A stretch of DNA of 64,000 nt from a virus, in IMG/VR virus record IMGVR_UViG_3300029390_000003; one strand, given 5' to 3'. The notes under the pieces were generated by a model that saw only the letters and a list, made by a program, of their open reading frames with translations, searched no databases and was not told the origin of the DNA. Below are positions 40,348 to 47,525 of this stretch, one piece after another. A program made the position numbers and the translations under genes. Each line of letters opens with the position of its first letter. The stretch's first letter is position 1.

Positions 40348-40424
40348 CCTATCGGGCTGGTGGGACAGGAGAGATTCGAACTCCCGACCAAGCGGTTATG
40401 AGCCGCCAGCTCTGACCAACTGAG
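40348..40424 (-). tRNA. tRNA-Met (anticodon CAT); could be a lysidine-modified tRNA-Ile instead.
   Basis: The cloverleaf was folded by hand. The acceptor stem is GGGATAG/CTGTCCC, the D-stem GCTC/GAGC, the anticodon loop CTCATAA and the T-loop TTCGAAT. CCA is encoded. Confidence 0.8.
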
Positions 40425-40661
40425 CTACTATCCCATGCAAACGCCGACTTTCGTCGGCGCGATGCCAGCGGAGGAATCGAACCTCATCTCTCGGTGTTTC
40501 CGAGCGCTTTTACCATTAAGCTATCCAGCCGTATACCTCAGAATTTAATTCTCACTATCCAAGCTACGTCGCGTTCCAATATGATCACTCTTGGCAACCA
40601 TGTCGTAACATATAGGTTCCTTTCGGCTCTGAGTAACCGGTGCAGCGTAAGGGGCTGCGTG

Positions 40662-40737
40662 TGGAGCGACTGACGGGGGACGATCCCGCAACATTCAGAT
40701 TGGAAATCTGACGCTCTGCCAATTGAACTACAGTCGC
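40662..40737 (-). tRNA. tRNA-Gly (TCC).
   Basis: The acceptor stem is GCGACTG/CAGTCGC, the anticodon stem TCAGA/TCTGA and the loop TTTCCAA. The T-loop is atypical. CCA is encoded. Confidence 0.7.
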
Positions 40738-41094
40738 ATAAGAACCAACCTAGCAACTGGCATCACTAGGCTGGGATGCTCGGCTTGCAAAGGCACGCTG
40801 CACTCTTTCGAGCGAGCCGAGAATAACGTACATGGATAATTTCGTTAGCCCCTTTCTGGGTGGTATCTTGCACAGGCGCGGCCGGATCTGACCGCTAAAG
40901 ATCCTACCCATACAAGATTGGAGCAGCGAAAGGTAGTCGAAACCTCATCCTCAGCTTGGAAGGCTGATGTACTAGCCGTTGTACGACCGCTGCATGAAAA
41001 CCCAGCTTACAAAGCACTACTGCACCATCACTGGCGAGCTGGGAATAATAGTGGTCAAAGGAGTTCAACCATGAACAACAACGATTCATGACCG

Positions 41095-41176
<82 letters not shown>

Positions 41177-41181
41177 ATAAA

Positions 41182-41252
41182 TTGCGCCAACAGGGGTCGA
41201 ACCTGTGATGGAGGAGTCAAAGTCCTCTGCCTTACCGCTTGGCGATGGCGCA
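41182..41252 (-). tRNA. tRNA-Gln (TTG).
   Basis: It has a U1:A72 acceptor pair as in bacterial tRNA-Gln. The anticodon stem is GAGGA/TCCTC, the loop CTTTGAC, and the T-arm ACAGG-TTCGACC-CCTGT. Confidence 0.8.
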
Positions 41253-41320
41253 TCATATACCCAGCTTACTGGAGAAGCATCCTACTGCCTTACTGCTAAG
41301 GAGCTGGGAATAATAGGAAT

Positions 41321-41396
41321 TGGTCTGAGCGACAAGATTTGAACTTGCGGTCCCCTGTTCCCAAAACAGGTGCGATGCCAACTTCGCTACGCCCAG
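41321..41396 (-). tRNA. tRNA-Pro (TGG).
   Basis: It has a C1:G72 pair as in bacterial tRNA-Pro. The anticodon stem is CCTGT/ACAGG and the loop TTTGGGA. CCA is encoded. Confidence 0.8.
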
Positions 41397-41403
41397 ATAT
41401 AAA

Positions 41404-41486
41404 TGCGCCCGGCGGGACTTGAACCCGCACGCCATCTCTGGCAGAAGATCTTAAGTCTCCTGTGTCTGCGATTCCACCACGGGCGC
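41404..41486 (-). tRNA. tRNA-Leu (TAA), type II.
   Basis: The acceptor stem is GCGCCCG/CGGGCGC and the anticodon loop CTTAAGA. The variable arm forms a hairpin (GCC-AGAGAT-GGC). The T-arm is GCGGG-TTCAAGT-CCCGC. Confidence 0.75.
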
Positions 41487-41686
41487 ATATAAAAGAAGAT
41501 CAGAAACAGCCAACCATTCGTTTTACATTCTAGTTTTCTGGCGAACCGAAGAGTATTTATCCGATAGCTAGTCGGCTTACACCTTATTTCTCTTCTTGTC
41601 TGGCTTGACGTCCTTTACCGGTATGACGTCTTTCCGGTCGCCAATGTACGGCCAATCCCCGAACGAGCTAGAACAACTGATCTTCA

Positions 41687-41771
41687 TGGTAGGGATAATC
41701 GGATTTGAACCGATACGTCTTTCGACACTTGAGTTTGAATCAAGCGTGGCTGCCAATTTCACCATATCCCC
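41687..41771 (-). tRNA. tRNA-Leu (CAA), type II.
   Basis: The acceptor stem is GGGGATA/TATCCCT and the anticodon loop TTCAAAC. The variable arm forms a hairpin. The T-arm is ATCGG-TTCAAAT-CCGAT. CCA is encoded. Confidence 0.8.
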
Positions 41772-41888: not shown

Positions 41889-44108
41889 TTAGCTCTTCTG
41901 CTGACTTGCGTAGAACTCATTCCGCAGCTGAATAATACCCTTCTTGCAGAAAGACTCTTGATCTTTCTCTCGTTGTTCACGCATCCAACCATAGAACAGG
42001 TTATCCTCGGCAGTAAACAACTTTGCGGTATTTTCATAATAGCCACGTTTTTGAACGCTCTGCATGACACCACGCAAGAACTTCCAGTGCTTATAATACG
42101 GAAGCTTCAGCTTAAACATGAAATTATTGCTGTCTCGCAAAACAAAGCCTTCAACGTGTTCAAAACCATGATGCAGATAGTTCTCGTTCATGACTTCTTC
42201 GTACCAAGGATAGAATTCACTCCAGTTCTCAAAGGTTTTAACCTTCTCCTTAATCTGCAGATGACACTTCTCGGCTACACGCTTCAAATCATCATAATCC
42301 ATTACACTGAAATTCATATCATTTGCAATAATATCCAGCAAAACAATGTGCGGTTTCTTATATTCGATGATATGTGCATCATTCACAGGATCAATCACCT
42401 CGAAGATGATGGAGCCATTCTCTTTTGCAACTTCTTTCAGATTCTTACGATCTTCATCAGAAGTCGTATCCATGAGAATCTTTCGGAACATATCTGCAAA
42501 AGGCCCATCAGGAGTGGATTTACTTGCAATGAACAGACCATCCTGTTCTGCATCATACGAAATGATACCAAGAAATCCGTTCTCTTTTAGATATGCAGTC
42601 ACCGGGAACTTCAAAGTGTTCTGTAGGTTTCCAATTCTCGTTTCATTCCGCTCATCAACCGCAAAGAACTTATCATAGCTTCGAGCTACAATCTTATTCG
42701 TCTTTGTGTTAATGAACAACCCTCTTGCTTTGGTAGAAACCTCATCCCAGTGCTTCTTATAAAATGCTTCACGAGAGAAGTTGAAAGAAGAAATATCTCC
42801 GAATCGCTTCTCAAACACATATTTGCTTTGACGCATCTTACTAACAAGTTCTGCGTTATCGAACTCAGTTTTCATTTCAACGGCAGTTTCAGTCTTTGGC
42901 TCCTCTTTTCGGAATACATCATTCTTGGTTTCTACGCATTTGATAGGCTGACCGTGTTCAAGCTCCACACAACGAAGATATCCACCAAACTCGATTTTGC
43001 CTTCAAGATTGTAGCACCGATGACCCATATCAATAGGAACATCCTGTACATTTCGATGGCCGAAGATCTGAATATAGCTATCCGGCATCGACTTTTCCCA
43101 AGACTCAGCCACGGTCAGTATATCAGGATAGCGGCCTACGCCTTTAATCATCTGATCCGCAGACACGAACGGAAGAAAATAAGGAAGATAGCTCAGACCA
43201 CCGTGACTTACGAAATACCGCTTACCATCATACTCAAAGTAGACACACTGGCCGACTCTGGAATAGATCTTACGAGCAGTGTTCTTGTCAATACCGGCTT
43301 TAAAGAGCTGCGGACGAGTGTAGTTTGCAAACTCTTCACTTTGAACCGGTTTATCACGCCCCCACTTGTTCAGCCAATGCTCGTGGTTCCCTTCCAAAAG
43401 GATCACATTCTTGCGGTTGTTATTTACAACATCACACAAGAACTTGAATACCTCAACGTTTTCGATGCCACGATCGAGATAATCACCAACGAAGATATAA
43501 AGCTCGTCGTCCTTCATCTCACCAAGGTATTCACTCAAGCAGGTATAGCAGCCATGAATATCACCGATGATATGTATCTTTTTCCACTGGTTAAAGTCAT
43601 TCGGGCAGTAGTTCAAATCGGACATCACATCCGTAGTAGAAGGAAGAACTGTCACGCCAGAAGGAACTTTTTGAGTAGCAAACCGAGCGTACATCTTATC
43701 AATAGCCGCTTCAGGAACTCGCTTTAGCCATTCTCTCTGAGCGTTTCTTCGTTTGCATTCCTCGATCGGAAGGTCCGTCATATCAATAACATACATCCGA
43801 TAACGATACTGTTTTGCAAGATTCTTATAACAATTCATTTCGACCGTCTTGGAATTCGTTGCATCAATCACAGTAAACTCGCCATGGCTCATCCGCACCT
43901 CAAGCAGTTTGAAAAGCATCTCCCATACAACATCATCATTCTGCTGAGAAATCTCCATCTGCCCATCAGGTGTTTCCTGTGCGCTCTGGCACATAAGGCG
44001 AAGTGTATCAACACTCAATACGTACTGCTCAAGATTATGCTCTTTAATATAGGTGGACTTCCCGCAACCGGGTGCTCCACGGAACAGTAAAAGTGTTCTC
44101 ATCTGCAT
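41889..44108 (-). CDS. Pnkp-like RNA end-healing and sealing enzyme: P-loop polynucleotide kinase, calcineurin-type phosphatase, and a C-terminal nucleotidyltransferase (ligase-like) domain.
   Basis: The N-terminus has Walker A (FRGAPGCGKST). The middle has the binuclear phosphoesterase motifs IIGDIHGCY, GDYLDRG and GNHE. The C-terminal 350 aa carry a KxNG lysine motif (AYLKENGFLGII) like ligase/adenylyltransferase motif I. The domain order matches bacterial Pnkp. Confidence 0.7.
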   Translation of the reverse strand: MQMRTLLLFRGAPGCGKSTYIKEHNLEQYVLSVDTLRLMCQSAQETPDGQMEISQQNDDVVWEMLFKLLEVRMSHGEFTVIDATNSKTVEMNCYKNLAKQYRYRMYVIDMTDLPIEECKRRNAQREWLKRVPEAAIDKMYARFATQKVPSGVTVLPSTTDVMSDLNYCPNDFNQWKKIHIIGDIHGCYTCLSEYLGEMKDDELYIFVGDYLDRGIENVEVFKFLCDVVNNNRKNVILLEGNHEHWLNKWGRDKPVQSEEFANYTRPQLFKAGIDKNTARKIYSRVGQCVYFEYDGKRYFVSHGGLSYLPYFLPFVSADQMIKGVGRYPDILTVAESWEKSMPDSYIQIFGHRNVQDVPIDMGHRCYNLEGKIEFGGYLRCVELEHGQPIKCVETKNDVFRKEEPKTETAVEMKTEFDNAELVSKMRQSKYVFEKRFGDISSFNFSREAFYKKHWDEVSTKARGLFINTKTNKIVARSYDKFFAVDERNETRIGNLQNTLKFPVTAYLKENGFLGIISYDAEQDGLFIASKSTPDGPFADMFRKILMDTTSDEDRKNLKEVAKENGSIIFEVIDPVNDAHIIEYKKPHIVLLDIIANDMNFSVMDYDDLKRVAEKCHLQIKEKVKTFENWSEFYPWYEEVMNENYLHHGFEHVEGFVLRDSNNFMFKLKLPYYKHWKFLRGVMQSVQKRGYYENTAKLFTAEDNLFYGWMREQREKDQESFCKKGIIQLRNEFYASQQKS

Positions 44109-45159: not shown

Positions 45160-45579
45160 TCAAGCAAATGCGGCAAAATTCTGAAATTCCATGGTATGTT
45201 GTACGCCGCTCAGGAATGCTGCAAGCAAAAACGGTTCATCCTTGCATCTTGCCATTGCGATCATATTCATCTGACGCTCCGACAAGACACCAAGTTTTTT
45301 AATGAACTGTCCTTTGTTAAGTGTATCAGTCTCTTCACATAGAACGATACTATCAACCTCTAGGAAATCACAATCTTCCTTTGAGAGTAGAACATGAACC
45401 GGAGAGCGCTTGTATATTCTGGAAGACAACGGATTCCCTTTAATTGTTGGACTAAAGAAGTTGCGCTTATTGTTGCTCGTCACAACGAACGGTCGAATAC
45501 CGCGCTGCTGATGACCTGTCGCATTGGATAGATCAACCAACCAAACCTCTCCGACCTTTGGGTCAATATTGTTGTCCAT
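45160..45579 (-). CDS. MazF/PemK-family endoribonuclease-like protein, with no antitoxin partner evident.
   Basis: The N-terminal pattern GEVWLVDLSNATGHQQRGIRPFVVTSNN and the later SIVLCEETDTLNK...GVLSERQMNMI match the PemK/MazF fold signature. Confidence 0.55.
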   Translation of the reverse strand: MDNNIDPKVGEVWLVDLSNATGHQQRGIRPFVVTSNNKRNFFSPTIKGNPLSSRIYKRSPVHVLLSKEDCDFLEVDSIVLCEETDTLNKGQFIKKLGVLSERQMNMIAMARCKDEPFLLAAFLSGVQHTMEFQNFAAFA

Positions 45580-45670: not shown

Positions 45671-45997
45671 TTAGTGCCCGTACAACTCTGGATTCTCTGA
45701 TACGAACACGCTGGTGTTATCGAATATCATCTCATACGCTTTCTCTTTATCGCCCGGCCTAAACTCAACCCTCCTTACTTCGTGACATTCTTGCCGCAAC
45801 TCAATATGACTTTCGTTTCCAAAAAATCCAATGCCTTTGACAATCCCATGCGTCTCTACGCCAATGTCGTCCATCTTTTTGCAGATCATGTGAACATCCA
45901 CACCATTGCAAATAAAACAGACCCACACTCGCTTTTTTCTTATGTACTTCAAAAAGTTCTCAACCTGTATAACTCCCAAAACCTTTTTCTCACTCAT
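45671..45997 (-). CDS. Hypothetical protein.
   Basis: A 108-aa ORF upstream of the MazF-like gene. It does not resemble an AbrB/MazE swapped-hairpin fold. Confidence 0.3.
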   Translation of the reverse strand: MSEKKVLGVIQVENFLKYIRKKRVWVCFICNGVDVHMICKKMDDIGVETHGIVKGIGFFGNESHIELRQECHEVRRVEFRPGDKEKAYEMIFDNTSVFVSENPELYGH

Positions 45998-46772: not shown

Positions 46773-47525
46773 TCAGATCTTTAAAGACTCCTCATTTACG
46801 GTCATCACAAGCTCGTTGACCCGCTTCCAATCAACATTGTCCGGCAGGTAAGTCTCGCTCTTGTCAACTGACAATCTGCTTTCATAGGCCGGAATCAGTT
46901 GCTGACGAATCTCTTTGTAATCATATTCACCGTTGCGAAGCTGCGTCAGGAAGTTATGATCATTGTCTCGATAGGTTTTAATTTCACCTTTTTCCAAGAT
47001 GTCAAAGAGCATCAGGTATACACGAACTGCATTCATTACCGTCTTGTGCATTTTCTTTGAATTATGGTAGATTGGATCTTTGTCTAATGTATCAGACTTC
47101 TGAATCAGCTTGCCTGCAAAACCTCCAAACGAGTAAATCACACGCTTTGAAAGGAATAGGTTTTTGTTGTCCATAAGTAGCTGCGTCATTGGGTTATAGC
47201 TAATAACGAGTTCATCGGCATTTCCTAACTGTTCCAGCATATTGGGATTTCCACTGCACATCAATTTCACAGCTTTGTTAAAGCTATAAATCGTTGTATC
47301 GGTCTGAGTGTCCACATAATGCTCAAACTCACCGAGACCAAGAAGGTCTTCTTTTGAATTCAATGCTACACCTCGAATGTCAAGATCTGAGCCCTCAACA
47401 TTTGTCCCGTAAGCATGACTGCCACCGACCGTTACGAACATCATATGCTTGCCAAGATGCTCATTCTCCCGAAGAAAACTATATTCTGGGAAGCATAACG
47501 CTCCAAGCAATTCATTTCTTGTCAT
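46773..47525 (-). CDS. Pol-beta-superfamily nucleotidyltransferase, PF10127/RlaP-like.
   Basis: VTVGGSHAYGTNVEGSDLDIRGVA is the GS-x-YG ... SDxDxRG active-site pattern of this nucleotidyltransferase family. Confidence 0.5.
   Translation of the reverse strand: MTRNELLGALCFPEYSFLRENEHLGKHMMFVTVGGSHAYGTNVEGSDLDIRGVALNSKEDLLGLGEFEHYVDTQTDTTIYSFNKAVKLMCSGNPNMLEQLGNADELVISYNPMTQLLMDNKNLFLSKRVIYSFGGFAGKLIQKSDTLDKDPIYHNSKKMHKTVMNAVRVYLMLFDILEKGEIKTYRDNDHNFLTQLRNGEYDYKEIRQQLIPAYESRLSVDKSETYLPDNVDWKRVNELVMTVNEESLKI

What the first reader, a model, noticed from the sequence alone, without database searches (positions are those of the whole stretch)
40738..41094. A non-coding stretch of about 350 nt inside the tRNA array with no tRNA fold. 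Candidate structured RNA.
The interval between tRNA-Gly and tRNA-Leu(TAG) contains no T-loop signature and no credible ORF. The two listed ORFs overlap it only by chance and read through tRNAs. It is rich in local hairpins, for example CTCGGC...GCCGAG at 40789..40826 and GGATC...GATCC near 40884..40908. It is transcribed in the same direction as the tRNAs. It could be a phage small RNA or a processing spacer.
Basis: seen in the sequence. Interest (0 to 1): 0.5.

Follow-up and report, generated by a model that had tools for sequence, protein, structure and literature searches.

The report
Missed tRNA plus two structured spacers
The "empty" 350-nt gap in this gut-phage tRNA array holds an overlooked tRNA-Gly gene and two conserved, covariation-supported RNA structures absent from Rfam: a tRNA acceptor-arm mimic fused to the tRNA's CCA end, and a nested pseudoknot placed 7 nt before tRNAs.

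Summary
On the minus strand (the tRNA strand), 40919-40993 is a tRNA-Gly(UCC) gene. ARAGORN calls it and Rfam scores it at 55.5 bits.

The rest is non-coding and structured, in two modules:

- **Acceptor-arm ("top-half") mimic, 40918-40861.** It starts on the base after the tRNA's CCA. It is a 12-bp helix capped by a 30-nt pseudoknot-forming domain and ends in ACCA, followed by a GNRA hairpin. About 135 human-gut phage contigs carry it. It follows CCA in 62 of 63 unique contexts. Ten of 24 pairs show compensatory changes.
- **Leader pseudoknot, 41053-41001 and 40831-40779, with a third copy at 41318-41260.** It is a 53-nt nested pseudoknot with the topology and stem lengths of minimal HDV-like (theta) ribozymes. 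It lacks P1.1, L3 and the catalytic C. It ends exactly 7 nt before a tRNA in 91 of 158 unique contexts. Twelve of 18 pairs covary.

Neither module matches any Rfam 15 family.

Best reading (inferred): these are processing modules of one polycistronic pre-tRNA. RNase P would cut at the mimic's 5' end and so create the upstream tRNA's CCA end. The pseudoknot would frame the 7-nt RNase P leader. Function is untested, and both elements are confined to one phage lineage.

The parts
41054..41094 (-). 41-nt trailer after tRNA-Leu(UAG). It holds only a local hairpin (CAUGAA...UUCAUG), and I assign it no conserved structure.
   Evidence: Sequence. Fold of 40994-41094 gives z = -0.9.
41001..41053 (-). 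Leader pseudoknot, copy a. P1 41053-41047 pairs with 41021-41015. J1/2 (AUU) is 41046-41044. P2 41043-41037 pairs with 41007-41001. Hairpin H1 is 41036-41023. J3 (CUUUGUA) is 41014-41008.
   Evidence: Pair counts. Test without a pairing filter.
40994..41000 (-). 7-nt single-stranded leader (UUUUCAU) between pseudoknot copy a and the tRNA-Gly 5' end.
   Evidence: The 7-nt spacing recurs in 91 of 158 unique contexts.
40919..40993 (-). tRNA-Gly(UCC) gene with encoded CCA (40921-40919).
   Evidence: ARAGORN. Rfam RF00005, 55.5 bits, E = 3e-09.
40861..40918 (-). tRNA acceptor-arm ('top-half') mimic. The 12-bp helix P1 is 40918-40907 paired with 40876-40865. The 30-nt cap is 40906-40877, with helix A (40904-40899 / 40889-40884) and helix B (40895-40890 / 40883-40878). 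The 3' ACCA is 40864-40861.
   Evidence: (R1 model, 96.6 bits).
40849..40860 (-). Hairpin C (CCC-AGAAAG-GGG here; CCCC-GAAA-GGGG in most relatives), directly after ACCA. Its loop and C-run length vary, and it is absent in one relative (L203).
   Evidence: tRNA-Met at 40358 has the same architecture, CCA followed by GCCC-GAUA-GGGC.
40832..40848 (-). Variable linker. It cannot be aligned between sub-lineages.
40779..40831 (-). Leader pseudoknot, copy c. P1 40831-40825 pairs with 40799-40793. J1/2 is 40824-40822. P2 40821-40815 pairs with 40785-40779. H1 is 40814-40801. J3 (CUUUGCA) is 40792-40786.
40745..40774 (-). Hairpin D (CCAGCCUAG...CUAGGUUGG). This optional module sits between the pseudoknot and the tRNA in some arrays.
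   Evidence: listed as terminator-like. In one search, 22 contexts have a gap of 32-51 nt before the tRNA; those I read show such a hairpin there.
40738..40744 (-). 7-nt leader (UUCUUAU) before the second tRNA-Gly(UCC), 40737-40662.
41260..41318 (-). Leader pseudoknot, copy b, outside the finding. It begins 2 nt after the tRNA-Pro CCA and ends 7 nt before tRNA-Gln. Its J3 is longer, at 13 nt.

Best explanation
The interval is part of one polycistronic phage pre-tRNA transcript. It is built from modules: leader pseudoknot, 7-nt leader, tRNA-Gly(UCC)-CCA, acceptor-arm mimic ending in ACCA, GNRA hairpin, variable linker, leader pseudoknot, hairpin, 7-nt leader, tRNA-Gly(UCC).

**Shown**
- The missed tRNA gene.
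- The secondary structures of both elements, their conservation and covariation, and their fixed positions relative to tRNA ends.

**Inferred for the mimic**
- It imitates the tRNA acceptor/T-arm stack: a 12-bp helix followed by discriminator A and CCA, with a compact pseudoknot where the T-loop/elbow would be.
- Bacterial RNase P would therefore cut at its 5' end.
- Because position 1 follows the upstream tRNA's CCA with no spacer, that single cut would also create the mature CCA-3'OH end of that tRNA.
- It would release a roughly 58-nt CCA-ending RNA, or longer species that still carry the hairpin and pseudoknot.

**Inferred for the leader pseudoknot**
- It is a rigid module that locks up the spacer.
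- It leaves exactly the 7 nt of leader that RNase P contacts single-stranded.
- It may also act as a barrier to exonucleases.
For: **tRNA**
-.

**Mimic**
- Homologues were found in about 135 fetched loci, nearly all from human-gut or faecal samples and mostly on contigs of 55-200 kb.
- There is a single copy in the window.
- In 62 of 63 unique contexts the 3 nt upstream are CCA. In 57 of 58 the element abuts the ARAGORN tRNA end.
- The upstream tRNA differs between contigs: Leu-UAG 24, Leu-UAA 21, Gly-UCC 12, Leu-CAG 1.
- In 38 unique sequences 97.8% of cells pair, and 10 of 24 pairs carry changes on both sides. No shuffle out of 500 reached this, and slid registers gave 0-3.
- RNAalifold independently recovers P1, helix B and hairpin C.
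- Three of the 12 P1 pairs are G-U in the consensus, so the fold exists only on the tRNA strand.
- The trailing ACCA is conserved in 37 of 38 unique sequences.
- The ACCA-plus-GNRA-hairpin tail copies the 3' end of tRNA-Met in the same array.
- The adjoining linker cannot be aligned between sub-lineages, while the element is about 91% identical.

**RNase P logic**
- Hairpin substrates made of acceptor stem plus T stem-loop are cut at the canonical site.
- The 3' RCCA pairs with GGU in the P15 loop of RNase P RNA.
- The RNase P protein contacts leader positions -8 to -3.
- All three points come from the review PMC11143913.

**Leader pseudoknot**
- 98.8% of cells pair. Twelve of 18 pairs have changes on both sides: 155 cells against 42 in shuffles.
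- Without any pairing filter, 76 of 84 unique sequence matches pair at all 5 variable P1 positions. The figure is 24% when partners are swapped.
- 111 of 158 unique contexts end 5-8 nt before a tRNA, 91 of them at exactly 7 nt.
- The only three confident copies in the window lie inside the array.

**Single transcription unit**
- One promoter-like site lies at 41879-41850 and one terminator-like site at 40296-40283, both on the minus strand.
Against: - No expression, end-mapping or cleavage data exist. RNase P cleavage is inferred from geometry only.
- The base pair at the cleavage site (1:54) is weak: A-U in 33 of 38 unique sequences, G-U in 2 and unpaired in 3. The -1 base is A rather than the preferred U.
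- Other tRNAs in the same array manage with 5-6-nt spacers, so 3'-end making cannot be the element's whole purpose.
- The strongly conserved pseudoknot cap suggests a function of the released RNA itself, which this explanation does not identify.
- Hairpin C directly after ACCA would hinder exonucleolytic trimming to CCA.
- For the leader pseudoknot, the invariant junction bases (AUU, C, and C-N-N-W-G-Y-A) point to a more specific role than an insulator, such as catalysis, protein binding or ligand binding.
- The family is narrow (one phage lineage). Part of the conservation reflects relatedness, and several covariation events are shared by related sequences.
Confidence: 0.45

Rival explanations
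1. One or both elements are self-cleaving ribozymes. The leader pseudoknot would be a divergent HDV-like (theta-type) ribozyme cutting at the 5' end of its P1. Alternatively, the mimic cuts the bond after the tRNA's CCA, as theta ribozymes do for tRNA 3' trailers. The neighbouring kinase-phosphatase-ligase would then heal the 2',3'-cyclic phosphate and 5'-OH ends.
For: - The pseudoknot has the theta layout and dimensions. Ours is P1 7 bp, J1/2 3 nt, P2 7 bp, hairpin, P1', junction, P2'. The published example is GAAUAGC|AA|AUGAGAA|ACC U CC ACGU GGU|GCUAUUC|GG GUAACG CUAA|UUCUCAU (supplement of PMC10879173).
- Theta ribozymes occur in gut-phage tRNA arrays, and an RNA ligase gene is enriched in those phages.
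- The gene next to this array (41889-44108, minus strand) has kinase, metallophosphatase and T4 Rnl1-type ligase domains.
- The mimic starts exactly at the tRNA 3' end, as theta ribozymes do.
Against: - The pseudoknot lacks P1.1 and the conserved L3. Its hairpin has GNRA or variable loops, and the H1 segment is 15-39 nt long.
- The slot of the catalytic C (first base of J4/2) holds G, A or U.
- It lies 7 nt upstream of tRNAs and usually 27 nt or more from the preceding tRNA.
- No HDV-like, hatchet, twister, pistol or hammerhead model matches at E <= 10 in the window region or E <= 1 in 12 related arrays.
- In the mimic, the scissile bond sits at the base of a regular 12-bp helix, far from the conserved cap.
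- An HDV-type P2 pairing for the mimic is contradicted by the nested 11:44 and 12:43 covariation.
Confidence: 0.15
2. The elements act in trans as decoys or anti-defence RNAs. The CCA-ending acceptor-arm mimic would titrate a host enzyme or toxin that recognises tRNA acceptor ends, or it is itself aminoacylated or tagged. The repeated pseudoknots would act like type III antitoxin RNAs, inhibiting a Kid/MazF-fold endoribonuclease of the host or the phage's own PemK/MazF-like protein.
For: - The cap of the mimic is far more conserved than a processing signal needs.
- Type III antitoxins are H-type pseudoknots with single-stranded tails that bind ToxN/CptN toxins, which share the Kid fold (PMC4627078).
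- A PemK/MazF-like gene (45160-45579, minus strand; 70 bits) and an RlaP RNA-repair nucleotidyltransferase gene lie just upstream of the array. They travel with it in close relatives.
- The array also holds a conserved tRNA-like RNA with a 5-nt anticodon loop.
Against: - The pseudoknots are not tandem repeats, and they show no sequence similarity to CptI.
- Their fixed 7-nt distance to tRNA starts argues for a cis role.
- No acceptor-stem identity element such as G3-U70 is present in P1.
- Many loci that carry the pseudoknot gave no MazF-like match, though those loci are short fragments.
Confidence: 0.15
3. The cap helices A and B of the mimic pair between molecules, 'hand in hand' as in phi29 pRNA. 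The released RNA would then form dimers or rings rather than an intramolecular pseudoknot.
For: - Both helices are supported by compensatory changes (17:33, 18:32, 19:31; 26:39, 27:38).
- The full 6+6-bp version has zero-length loops 2 and 3. From the geometry of H-type pseudoknots it cannot form within one molecule.
- The phi29 pRNA precedent is from my own knowledge.
Against: - The outermost pairs (15:35, 16:34, 29:36) show only uncompensated breaks.
- A shortened 4-5-bp plus 4-5-bp pseudoknot with 2-4-nt loops is sterically possible within one molecule and fits the data equally well.
Confidence: 0.1
4. The elements are decayed tRNA remnants, a small inverted-repeat mobile element or another DNA-level signal, or a small protein gene, with no RNA function.
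For: - P1 looks like a 12-bp inverted repeat.
- The element is found behind different tRNAs, which could reflect mobility or recombination.
- A 53-aa ORF overlaps it.
Against: - Compensatory and G-U-compatible changes preserve pairing on one strand only.
- The element is much better conserved than its linker.
- The AUG of the ORF is lost in ACUGG variants, and frames shift with C-run length.
- No U-tract follows hairpin C, so it is not an intrinsic terminator.
Confidence: 0.05

Closest known systems
RNase P hairpin (minihelix) model substrates, and tRNA-like processing signals such as mascRNA at the MALAT1 3' end and plant mitochondrial t-elements
   Same: - A 12-bp helix equals the acceptor (7 bp) plus T (5 bp) stack.
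- It is followed by a discriminator purine and CCA.
- It is placed so that one endonucleolytic cut at its 5' end would define the 3' end of the upstream RNA.
- Sources: review PMC11143913; t-elements, PMC1920247 abstract; mascRNA from my own knowledge.
   Different: - There is no T-loop. The helix is capped by a 30-nt pseudoknot-forming domain.
- There is no cloverleaf, and neither the Rfam tRNA nor the mascRNA model matches.
- It is fused with zero spacer to a genuine tRNA's CCA in a phage array.
- Cleavage by RNase P is untested.
Theta ribozymes (minimal HDV-like ribozymes next to gut-phage tRNAs; Kienbeck et al. 2024, PMC10879173)
   Same: - Same habitat: tRNA arrays of human-gut Caudoviricetes.
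- The leader pseudoknot shares the nested P1/P2 pseudoknot topology, 7-bp P1 and P2, a 2-3-nt J1/2, and a hairpin between P2 and P1'.
- The mimic shares the position directly after the tRNA 3' end.
- An RNA ligase gene lies nearby.
   Different: - The pseudoknot has no P1.1, no conserved L3 and no C in the catalytic slot.
- It lies 7 nt 5' of tRNAs rather than directly 3' of them.
- The tRNAs here encode CCA; only 4.5% of theta-associated tRNAs do.
- There are no Rfam HDV-like hits.
- The mimic has a nested fold, not an HDV-type fold.
Stable non-tRNA RNAs in the phage T4 tRNA cluster (species 1 and 2, rnaC/rnaD), cited from my own knowledge
   Same: Small structured RNAs of unknown function that are co-transcribed with phage tRNAs and released by tRNA-processing enzymes.
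   Different: No sequence relationship was tested. T4 infects Proteobacteria. The structures were not compared here.
Plant-virus tRNA-like structures (TYMV type) and the tmRNA tRNA-like domain, cited from my own knowledge
   Same: tRNA acceptor-end mimicry that combines a pseudoknot with a 3' (A)CCA end.
   Different: In TYMV the pseudoknot builds the acceptor stem itself. Here the acceptor-like helix is a plain 12-bp duplex and the pseudoknot sits at the far (elbow) end. No anticodon-arm or alanine identity elements are present.
Type III antitoxin RNAs (ToxI, CptI)
   Same: Short H-type pseudoknots with single-stranded tails, present in several copies per transcript. CptIN comes from a gut Bacillota species (PMC4627078).
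   Different: The copies here are not tandem. They carry an embedded hairpin and share no sequence similarity. They are tied to tRNA 5' ends. No ToxN/CptN-family gene was seen, only a PemK/MazF-like one.

Membership tests
tRNA (RF00005), for 40919-40993 | Cloverleaf with anticodon arm and T arm, scoring above the Rfam gathering threshold | tested here: met
   55.5 bits against a threshold of 29. ARAGORN calls tRNA-Gly(UCC).
tRNA (RF00005), for the mimic 40861-40918 | Cloverleaf detectable by the tRNA covariance model or ARAGORN | tested here: not met
   No tRNA hit at E <= 10 on this segment. ARAGORN finds nothing.
RNase P minihelix-type substrate / tRNA top-half mimic | Continuous helix of about 12 bp (acceptor plus T stem) | tested here: met
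   Pairs 1-12 with 43-54. 97.8% of cells pair and 5 pairs carry compensatory changes. The terminal 1:54 pair is weak or mismatched in some variants.
RNase P minihelix-type substrate / tRNA top-half mimic | Single-stranded 3' RCCA directly after the helix | tested here: met
   ACCA in 37 of 38 unique sequences and ACUA in one.
RNase P minihelix-type substrate / tRNA top-half mimic | T-loop or equivalent cap | tested here: not met
   The cap is a 30-nt domain with two overlapping helices. A T-loop reading (U13...A17) conflicts with the A17G variants, which instead keep the 17:33 pair.
RNase P minihelix-type substrate / tRNA top-half mimic | Cleavage by RNase P at the 5' end of the helix | not testable with these tools
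   Needs an enzyme assay or end-mapping.
HDV-like / theta ribozymes, for the leader pseudoknot | Nested double pseudoknot in the order P1-P2-P3-P1'-(P4)-P2' | tested here: met
   The order is P1, P2, hairpin H1, P1', P2', with 7-bp P1 and P2, matching the published example.
HDV-like / theta ribozymes, for the leader pseudoknot | P1.1 (2 bp between L3 and the bases after P1') and a conserved 7-8-nt L3 on a 3-bp P3 | tested here: not met
   H1 has 4 or more bp with GAAA, GUGA or other loops, and the H1 segment is 15-39 nt long. The bases after P1' are C/U followed by U/G/A.
HDV-like / theta ribozymes, for the leader pseudoknot | Catalytic C as the first base of J4/2 (C-N-R-A before P2') | tested here: not met
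   The equivalent slot reads G, A or U (GUAA, GCAA, AUAA, UUAA, UCAA). A C directly after P1' is common, judging from the first base of the J3 variants, but it occupies a different position.
HDV-like / theta ribozymes, for the leader pseudoknot | Match to Rfam HDV-like covariance models | tested here: not met
   No hit at E <= 10 or at E <= 1 in 12 arrays.
HDV-like / theta ribozymes | Self-cleavage at the 5' end of P1 | not testable with these tools
   Needs in vitro transcription and cleavage assays.
Theta ribozymes (position) | Cleavage site within 5 nt of a tRNA 3' end | tested here: not met
   The pseudoknot starts 27 nt or more after the previous tRNA in nearly all contexts (2 nt in window copy b) and ends 7 nt before the next tRNA. 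The mimic meets the position test but not the fold.
Type III antitoxin RNA | Tandem direct repeats upstream of a ToxN/CptN/TenpN-family toxin gene | tested here: not met
   The copies are interspersed with tRNAs. The nearby toxin-like gene is PemK/MazF type.
Intrinsic terminator | GC-rich hairpin followed by a U-tract | tested here: not met
   No U-run follows hairpin C. Only hairpin D is listed as terminator-like, with a weak tail.

The most novel reading that the evidence does not exclude
Two RNA classes specific to gut phages would be at work.

1. A pseudoknot-capped tRNA acceptor-arm mimic is cut out by RNase P, which makes the neighbouring tRNA's CCA end in one step. The mimic then persists as a CCA-ending RNA with its own role. 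That role could be as a decoy for host factors or toxins that bind tRNA acceptor ends, or as a self-associating particle.
2. A catalytic-C-less relative of HDV-like/theta ribozymes has been re-used in front of tRNAs. It would be either a new self-cleaving variant or an RNA roadblock that controls RNase P access or exonuclease decay.
Probability: 0.2. Interest if true: 0.8.

Novelty: new variant of a known kind. Interest (0 to 1): 0.6.

Why it matters
Phage tRNA arrays are usually annotated as tRNAs plus meaningless spacers. Here the spacers carry two conserved RNA folds tied to exact tRNA ends.

If RNase P does cut at the mimic, this would be a bacterial-virus counterpart of the mascRNA and t-element strategy, in which a tRNA look-alike defines a neighbour's 3' end. 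It would also be a one-step route to a mature CCA end.

The leader pseudoknot shares the architecture of theta/HDV-like ribozymes but lacks their catalytic signature. That makes two questions testable: how such folds evolve, and whether they can be re-used without catalysis.

Both elements are short enough (53-70 nt) for direct biochemical and structural work. The array also sits next to an RNA-repair and MazF-like gene cluster, so it may bear on the contest between phage and host over tRNA.

Tried and rejected
- **Rfam.** Scans at gathering and E-value thresholds on the window, and on 12 related arrays, returned only tRNAs and tRNA look-alike noise.
- **HDV-like parse of the mimic.** I tried P1 = 1-7/48-54, P4 = hairpin C and P2 = AUGG with a downstream CCAU. 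I rejected it for three reasons: the CCAU is not conserved, the nested pairs 11:44 and 12:43 covary, and there is no P3/L3.
- **Full 6+6-bp pseudoknot in the cap.** Rejected on geometry, because loops 2 and 3 would have zero length. A shortened core or pairing between molecules remains possible.
- **T-loop reading of U13-A17.** Rejected because of the A17G variants.
- **Internal promoters before each pseudoknot.** No sigma-70-like sites were found apart from the one upstream of the array.
- **Coding potential.** Rejected.
- **Over-degenerate pattern.** GGATCTN9AGATCCGG returned mostly chance hits. About half of the metagenome pattern hits were also chance hits, and I filtered them by context.
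- **Theta supplement.** Searching the supplementary tables held for the theta-ribozyme paper for our sequences found nothing, but those files are truncated.
- **csRNA catalogue.** The gut-phage catalogue of candidate structured RNAs (csRNAs), PMC10690425, lists highly expressed 64-nt and 81-nt candidates in Blautia and Ruminococcus phages. Its sequences are not held, so identity could not be checked.
- **CptI antitoxin.** Its sequence shows no resemblance.
- **Host.** Identity is unresolved. The only genome hit is a 12.5-kb contig in a Peptococcaceae MAG. The ligase gene's nearest relatives are in Bacillota phages.
Full report
**1. What is at the coordinates**

All tRNAs of this array lie on the minus strand (40358-41771). 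ARAGORN finds eight, and Rfam adds a weak ninth.

One of the eight, a tRNA-Gly(UCC) at 40919-40993, lies inside the reported 'tRNA-free' interval. Rfam scores it 55.5 bits against a threshold of 29. Its T-arm reads AGGU-UUCGACU-ACCU, an atypical T-loop that explains the miss.

The true non-tRNA segments are 40738-40918 (181 nt) and 40994-41094 (101 nt). An Rfam scan with permissive thresholds finds no family other than tRNA there.

The ORFs are short and run through tRNAs. Homologues carry frame-breaking indels.

The 181-nt segment folds better than shuffles, z = -3.1. The 101-nt segment does not, z = -0.9.

**2. Related sequences**

A megablast against phage records gave one informative hit. 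An unannotated faecal phage scaffold, MT835676, matches exactly the 181-nt segment and not the flanking tRNAs.

In that record the element follows tRNA-Leu(UAG) instead of tRNA-Gly. One difference is a U-A to C-G compensatory change.

- Pattern scans of IMG/VR found 45 contigs of 36-150 kb, most above 70 kb.
- A metagenome scan added about 50 more, nearly all from human gut, plus chance hits that I filtered by context.
- A genome scan found one contig in a Peptococcaceae MAG.
- A covariance model built from 26 variants (R1) finds one copy in the window, at 96.6 bits.
- The same model finds 37 further, more divergent copies in related contigs fetched through the second element.

**3. Element 1: a tRNA acceptor-arm (top-half) mimic, 40918-40861**

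In RNA sense it reads AUCUUGUAUGGG-[30 nt]-CCUGUGCAAGAU-ACCA, followed by CCC-AGAAAG-GGG.

- Positions 1-12 pair with 43-54, giving 12 bp, three of them G-U.
- In 38 unique sequences 97.8% of cells pair.
- Ten of 24 pairs have changes on both sides: five in P1, three in helix A and two in helix B.
- No shuffle out of 500 reached this, and slid registers gave 0-3 (earlier smaller set).
- RNAalifold independently returns P1, helix B and the trailing hairpin.

The 30-nt cap holds two helices. Helix A is 15-20 with 30-35, and helix B is 24-29 with 36-41.

- Their strands interleave with zero-length connecting loops, so the full 6+6-bp form cannot exist in one molecule. This follows from H-type pseudoknot geometry.
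- Both inner cores covary (17:33, 18:32, 19:31; 26:39, 27:38).
- The outer pairs (15:35, 16:34, 29:36) show only uncompensated breaks.
- This fits a compact intramolecular pseudoknot of 4-5 bp per stem. Pairing between molecules fits equally well.

The helix is followed by ACCA in 37 of 38 variants. A hairpin follows whose loop and C-run vary, and it is missing in one contig.

The position is the most telling feature.

- In 62 of 63 unique contexts the three preceding bases are CCA.
- In 57 of 58 the element abuts the end of an ARAGORN tRNA.
- That tRNA is Leu(UAG) 24 times, Leu(UAA) 21, Gly(UCC) 12 and Leu(CAG) once.

The linker downstream cannot be aligned between sub-lineages. The conservation is therefore element-specific.

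**4. Element 2: a leader pseudoknot, 41053-41001 and 40831-40779, plus 41318-41260 outside the finding**

What first looked like a 'UUAUUC + three-way hairpin' repeat is a nested pseudoknot:

5'-N5UU | AUU | CYNNSCU | C-hairpin-G | C | AR-N5' | C-N-N-W-G-Y-A | AGSNNRG-3'

- P1 (7 bp) pairs the 5' tail with a segment enclosed by P2 (7 bp).
- In 40 unique sequences 98.8% of cells pair.
- Twelve of 18 pairs change on both sides: 155 cells against 42 in shuffles, and 6-24 in slid registers.
- That set had been selected for pairing, so I repeated the test on 84 unique matches to a sequence-only pattern. All five variable P1 positions pair in 76 of them, against 24% when partners are swapped.
- Loop lengths suit an H-type fold: 3 nt across the 7-bp P2, and 7 nt across the 7-bp P1.

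About half of the loci carrying the pseudoknot lacked a match to my first pattern for element 1. The later model search found element 1 in 37 of those 89 loci.

- Of 158 unique contexts, 111 end 5-8 nt before a tRNA start, 91 of them at exactly 7 nt.
- Another 22 end 32-51 nt before it. Where I read these, an extra hairpin lies in between, as at 40774-40745.
- Downstream tRNAs are mainly Gly(UCC) and Gln(UUG).
- Within the 64-kb window the three full-scoring (7/7) copies all lie inside the array.

**5. Comparison with theta/HDV-like ribozymes**

These minimal ribozymes sit directly 3' of tRNAs in gut phages (PMC10879173).

A delimited example from their supplement shows P1 7, J1/2 2, P2 7, P3 3 + L3 7, P1' 7, GG (P1.1), L4 6, J4/2 CUAA and P2' 7.

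The leader pseudoknot has the same order and the same P1, J1/2 and P2 sizes. Three things differ.

- Its hairpin is variable and GNRA-capped, so there is no L3 and no P1.1.
- The junction before P2' is 7 nt long.
- The catalytic-C slot holds G, A or U.

It also sits on the other side of tRNAs. No Rfam ribozyme model matches, in the window or in 12 related arrays. It therefore works on the same architectural plan but fails the family's defining tests.

An HDV-type parse of element 1 also fails (see Tried and rejected).

**6. How it most likely works**

*Shown:* the structures, their conservation, and their fixed register to tRNA ends.

*Inferred, element 1:*
- It reproduces what bacterial RNase P needs from a minimal substrate.
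- According to the review PMC11143913, that is a hairpin equal to acceptor plus T stem with a 3' RCCA, which pairs with GGU in the P15 loop.
- A cut at its 5' end would coincide with the upstream tRNA's CCA end. One cleavage would then mature that 3' end and free the mimic.
- The mimic's 3' tail (ACCA plus GNRA hairpin) copies that of tRNA-Met in the same array. It is probably handled like a tRNA 3' end.

*Inferred, element 2:*
- It leaves 7 nt of leader free. The same review puts RNase P protein contacts at -8 to -3 and RNase P RNA contacts at -2 and -1.
- I therefore read it as a module that fixes the leader and isolates neighbouring folds, possibly also blocking exonucleases.

*Weak points:*
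- There are no expression or cleavage data.
- The 1:54 pair is weak.
- Neighbouring tRNAs manage with plain 5-6-nt spacers.
- The invariant junction bases and the conserved cap suggest additional, specific functions.

**7. Context**

A promoter-like site (41879-41850) and a terminator-like site (40296-40283) bracket the array on the minus strand.

Upstream on the same strand lie four genes of interest.

- A kinase-metallophosphatase-T4 Rnl1-type ligase fusion, 41889-44108. Its nearest relatives are in Bacillota phages at 38-44% identity.
- A PemK/MazF-like toxin gene, 45160-45579.
- An RlaP RNA-repair nucleotidyltransferase gene, 46773-47525.
- A C5 DNA methylase gene downstream of the array.

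Close relatives share these genes. This keeps two rivals alive: ribozyme or toxin cleavage followed by end healing, and decoy or antitoxin-like roles. It does not decide between them.

**8. Novelty and verdict**

- Part of the finding is simply a missed tRNA gene, which is ordinary.
- The rest is real. It comprises two structured RNA elements with good comparative support that are absent from Rfam 15.
- Each is a new variant of a known kind: a tRNA-like processing or mimic element, and an HDV-topology pseudoknot.
- They are restricted to one lineage of large human-gut phages, probably infecting Bacillota.
- A published catalogue of about 10,000 unnamed viral candidate structures may already contain them. 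I could not check this.
- Interest is 0.6. The structure is solid, the mechanism is inferred and testable, and the function is unknown.

Noticed in passing
window 40463-40529 (minus strand): A weak tRNA-like gene (Rfam 30 bits, just above threshold) has a 5-nt 'anticodon loop' (AAACA) and no encoded CCA, and is followed by a GAAA hairpin. Related contigs conserve it, with a compensatory T-stem change (GAGG/CCUC to AAGG/CCUU). It therefore looks like a maintained non-decoding tRNA-like RNA.
   Followed up: partly
window 41488-41686 (minus strand): The 199-nt spacer between tRNA-Leu(CAA) and tRNA-Leu(UAA) is closed by a 9-bp helix (GAAGAUCAG/CUGAUCUUC). The helix starts 1 nt after the CCA and ends 7 nt before the next tRNA. 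Fold z = -1.9. It may be another discrete inter-tRNA RNA.
   Followed up: partly
window 41889-44108, 45160-45579, 45671-45997, 46773-47525 (all minus strand): An RNA-repair and toxin cluster lies directly upstream of the tRNA array. It holds a kinase + metallophosphatase + T4 Rnl1-type ligase fusion, a PemK/MazF-like endoribonuclease with a small upstream ORF (a possible antitoxin), and an RlaP nucleotidyltransferase. Close relatives conserve it with the array.
   Followed up: partly
L011 725-793, L014 2307-2375, L003 2626-2694 (related contigs): A 69-nt tRNA scores 45-51 bits in Rfam but ARAGORN misses it. It sits between two leader pseudoknots and accounts for the apparent 130-nt gaps in the array maps. 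Its anticodon arm looks atypical.
   Followed up: no
hairpin C of the mimic in related loci (e.g. L011, L024, L263) and L203 73-161: The C-run of hairpin C varies from 4 to 10 residues between contigs, which looks like slippage. In L203 the hairpin is replaced by the trailer sequence that normally follows a tRNA CCA. This suggests recombination at the ACCA/CCA junction.
   Followed up: no
L164 3843-3931: The mimic's P1 looks recombinant. The 5' strand is of one type and the 3' strand of another, giving a C-A mismatch. This is evidence that arrays exchange segments within the element.
   Followed up: no
window 40530-40661 (minus strand): A 132-nt spacer after the second tRNA-Gly contains a hairpin (GCAGC-CCCUUAC-GCUGC) 3 nt after the CCA. 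I did not analyse it for conservation.
   Followed up: no
window tRNA 3' ends (41182, 41403 versus the others): tRNAs followed within 5-6 nt by another tRNA (Gln, Leu-UAA) lack an encoded CCA. tRNAs followed by long structured spacers encode CCA. This suggests two different 3'-maturation routes within one array.
   Followed up: no
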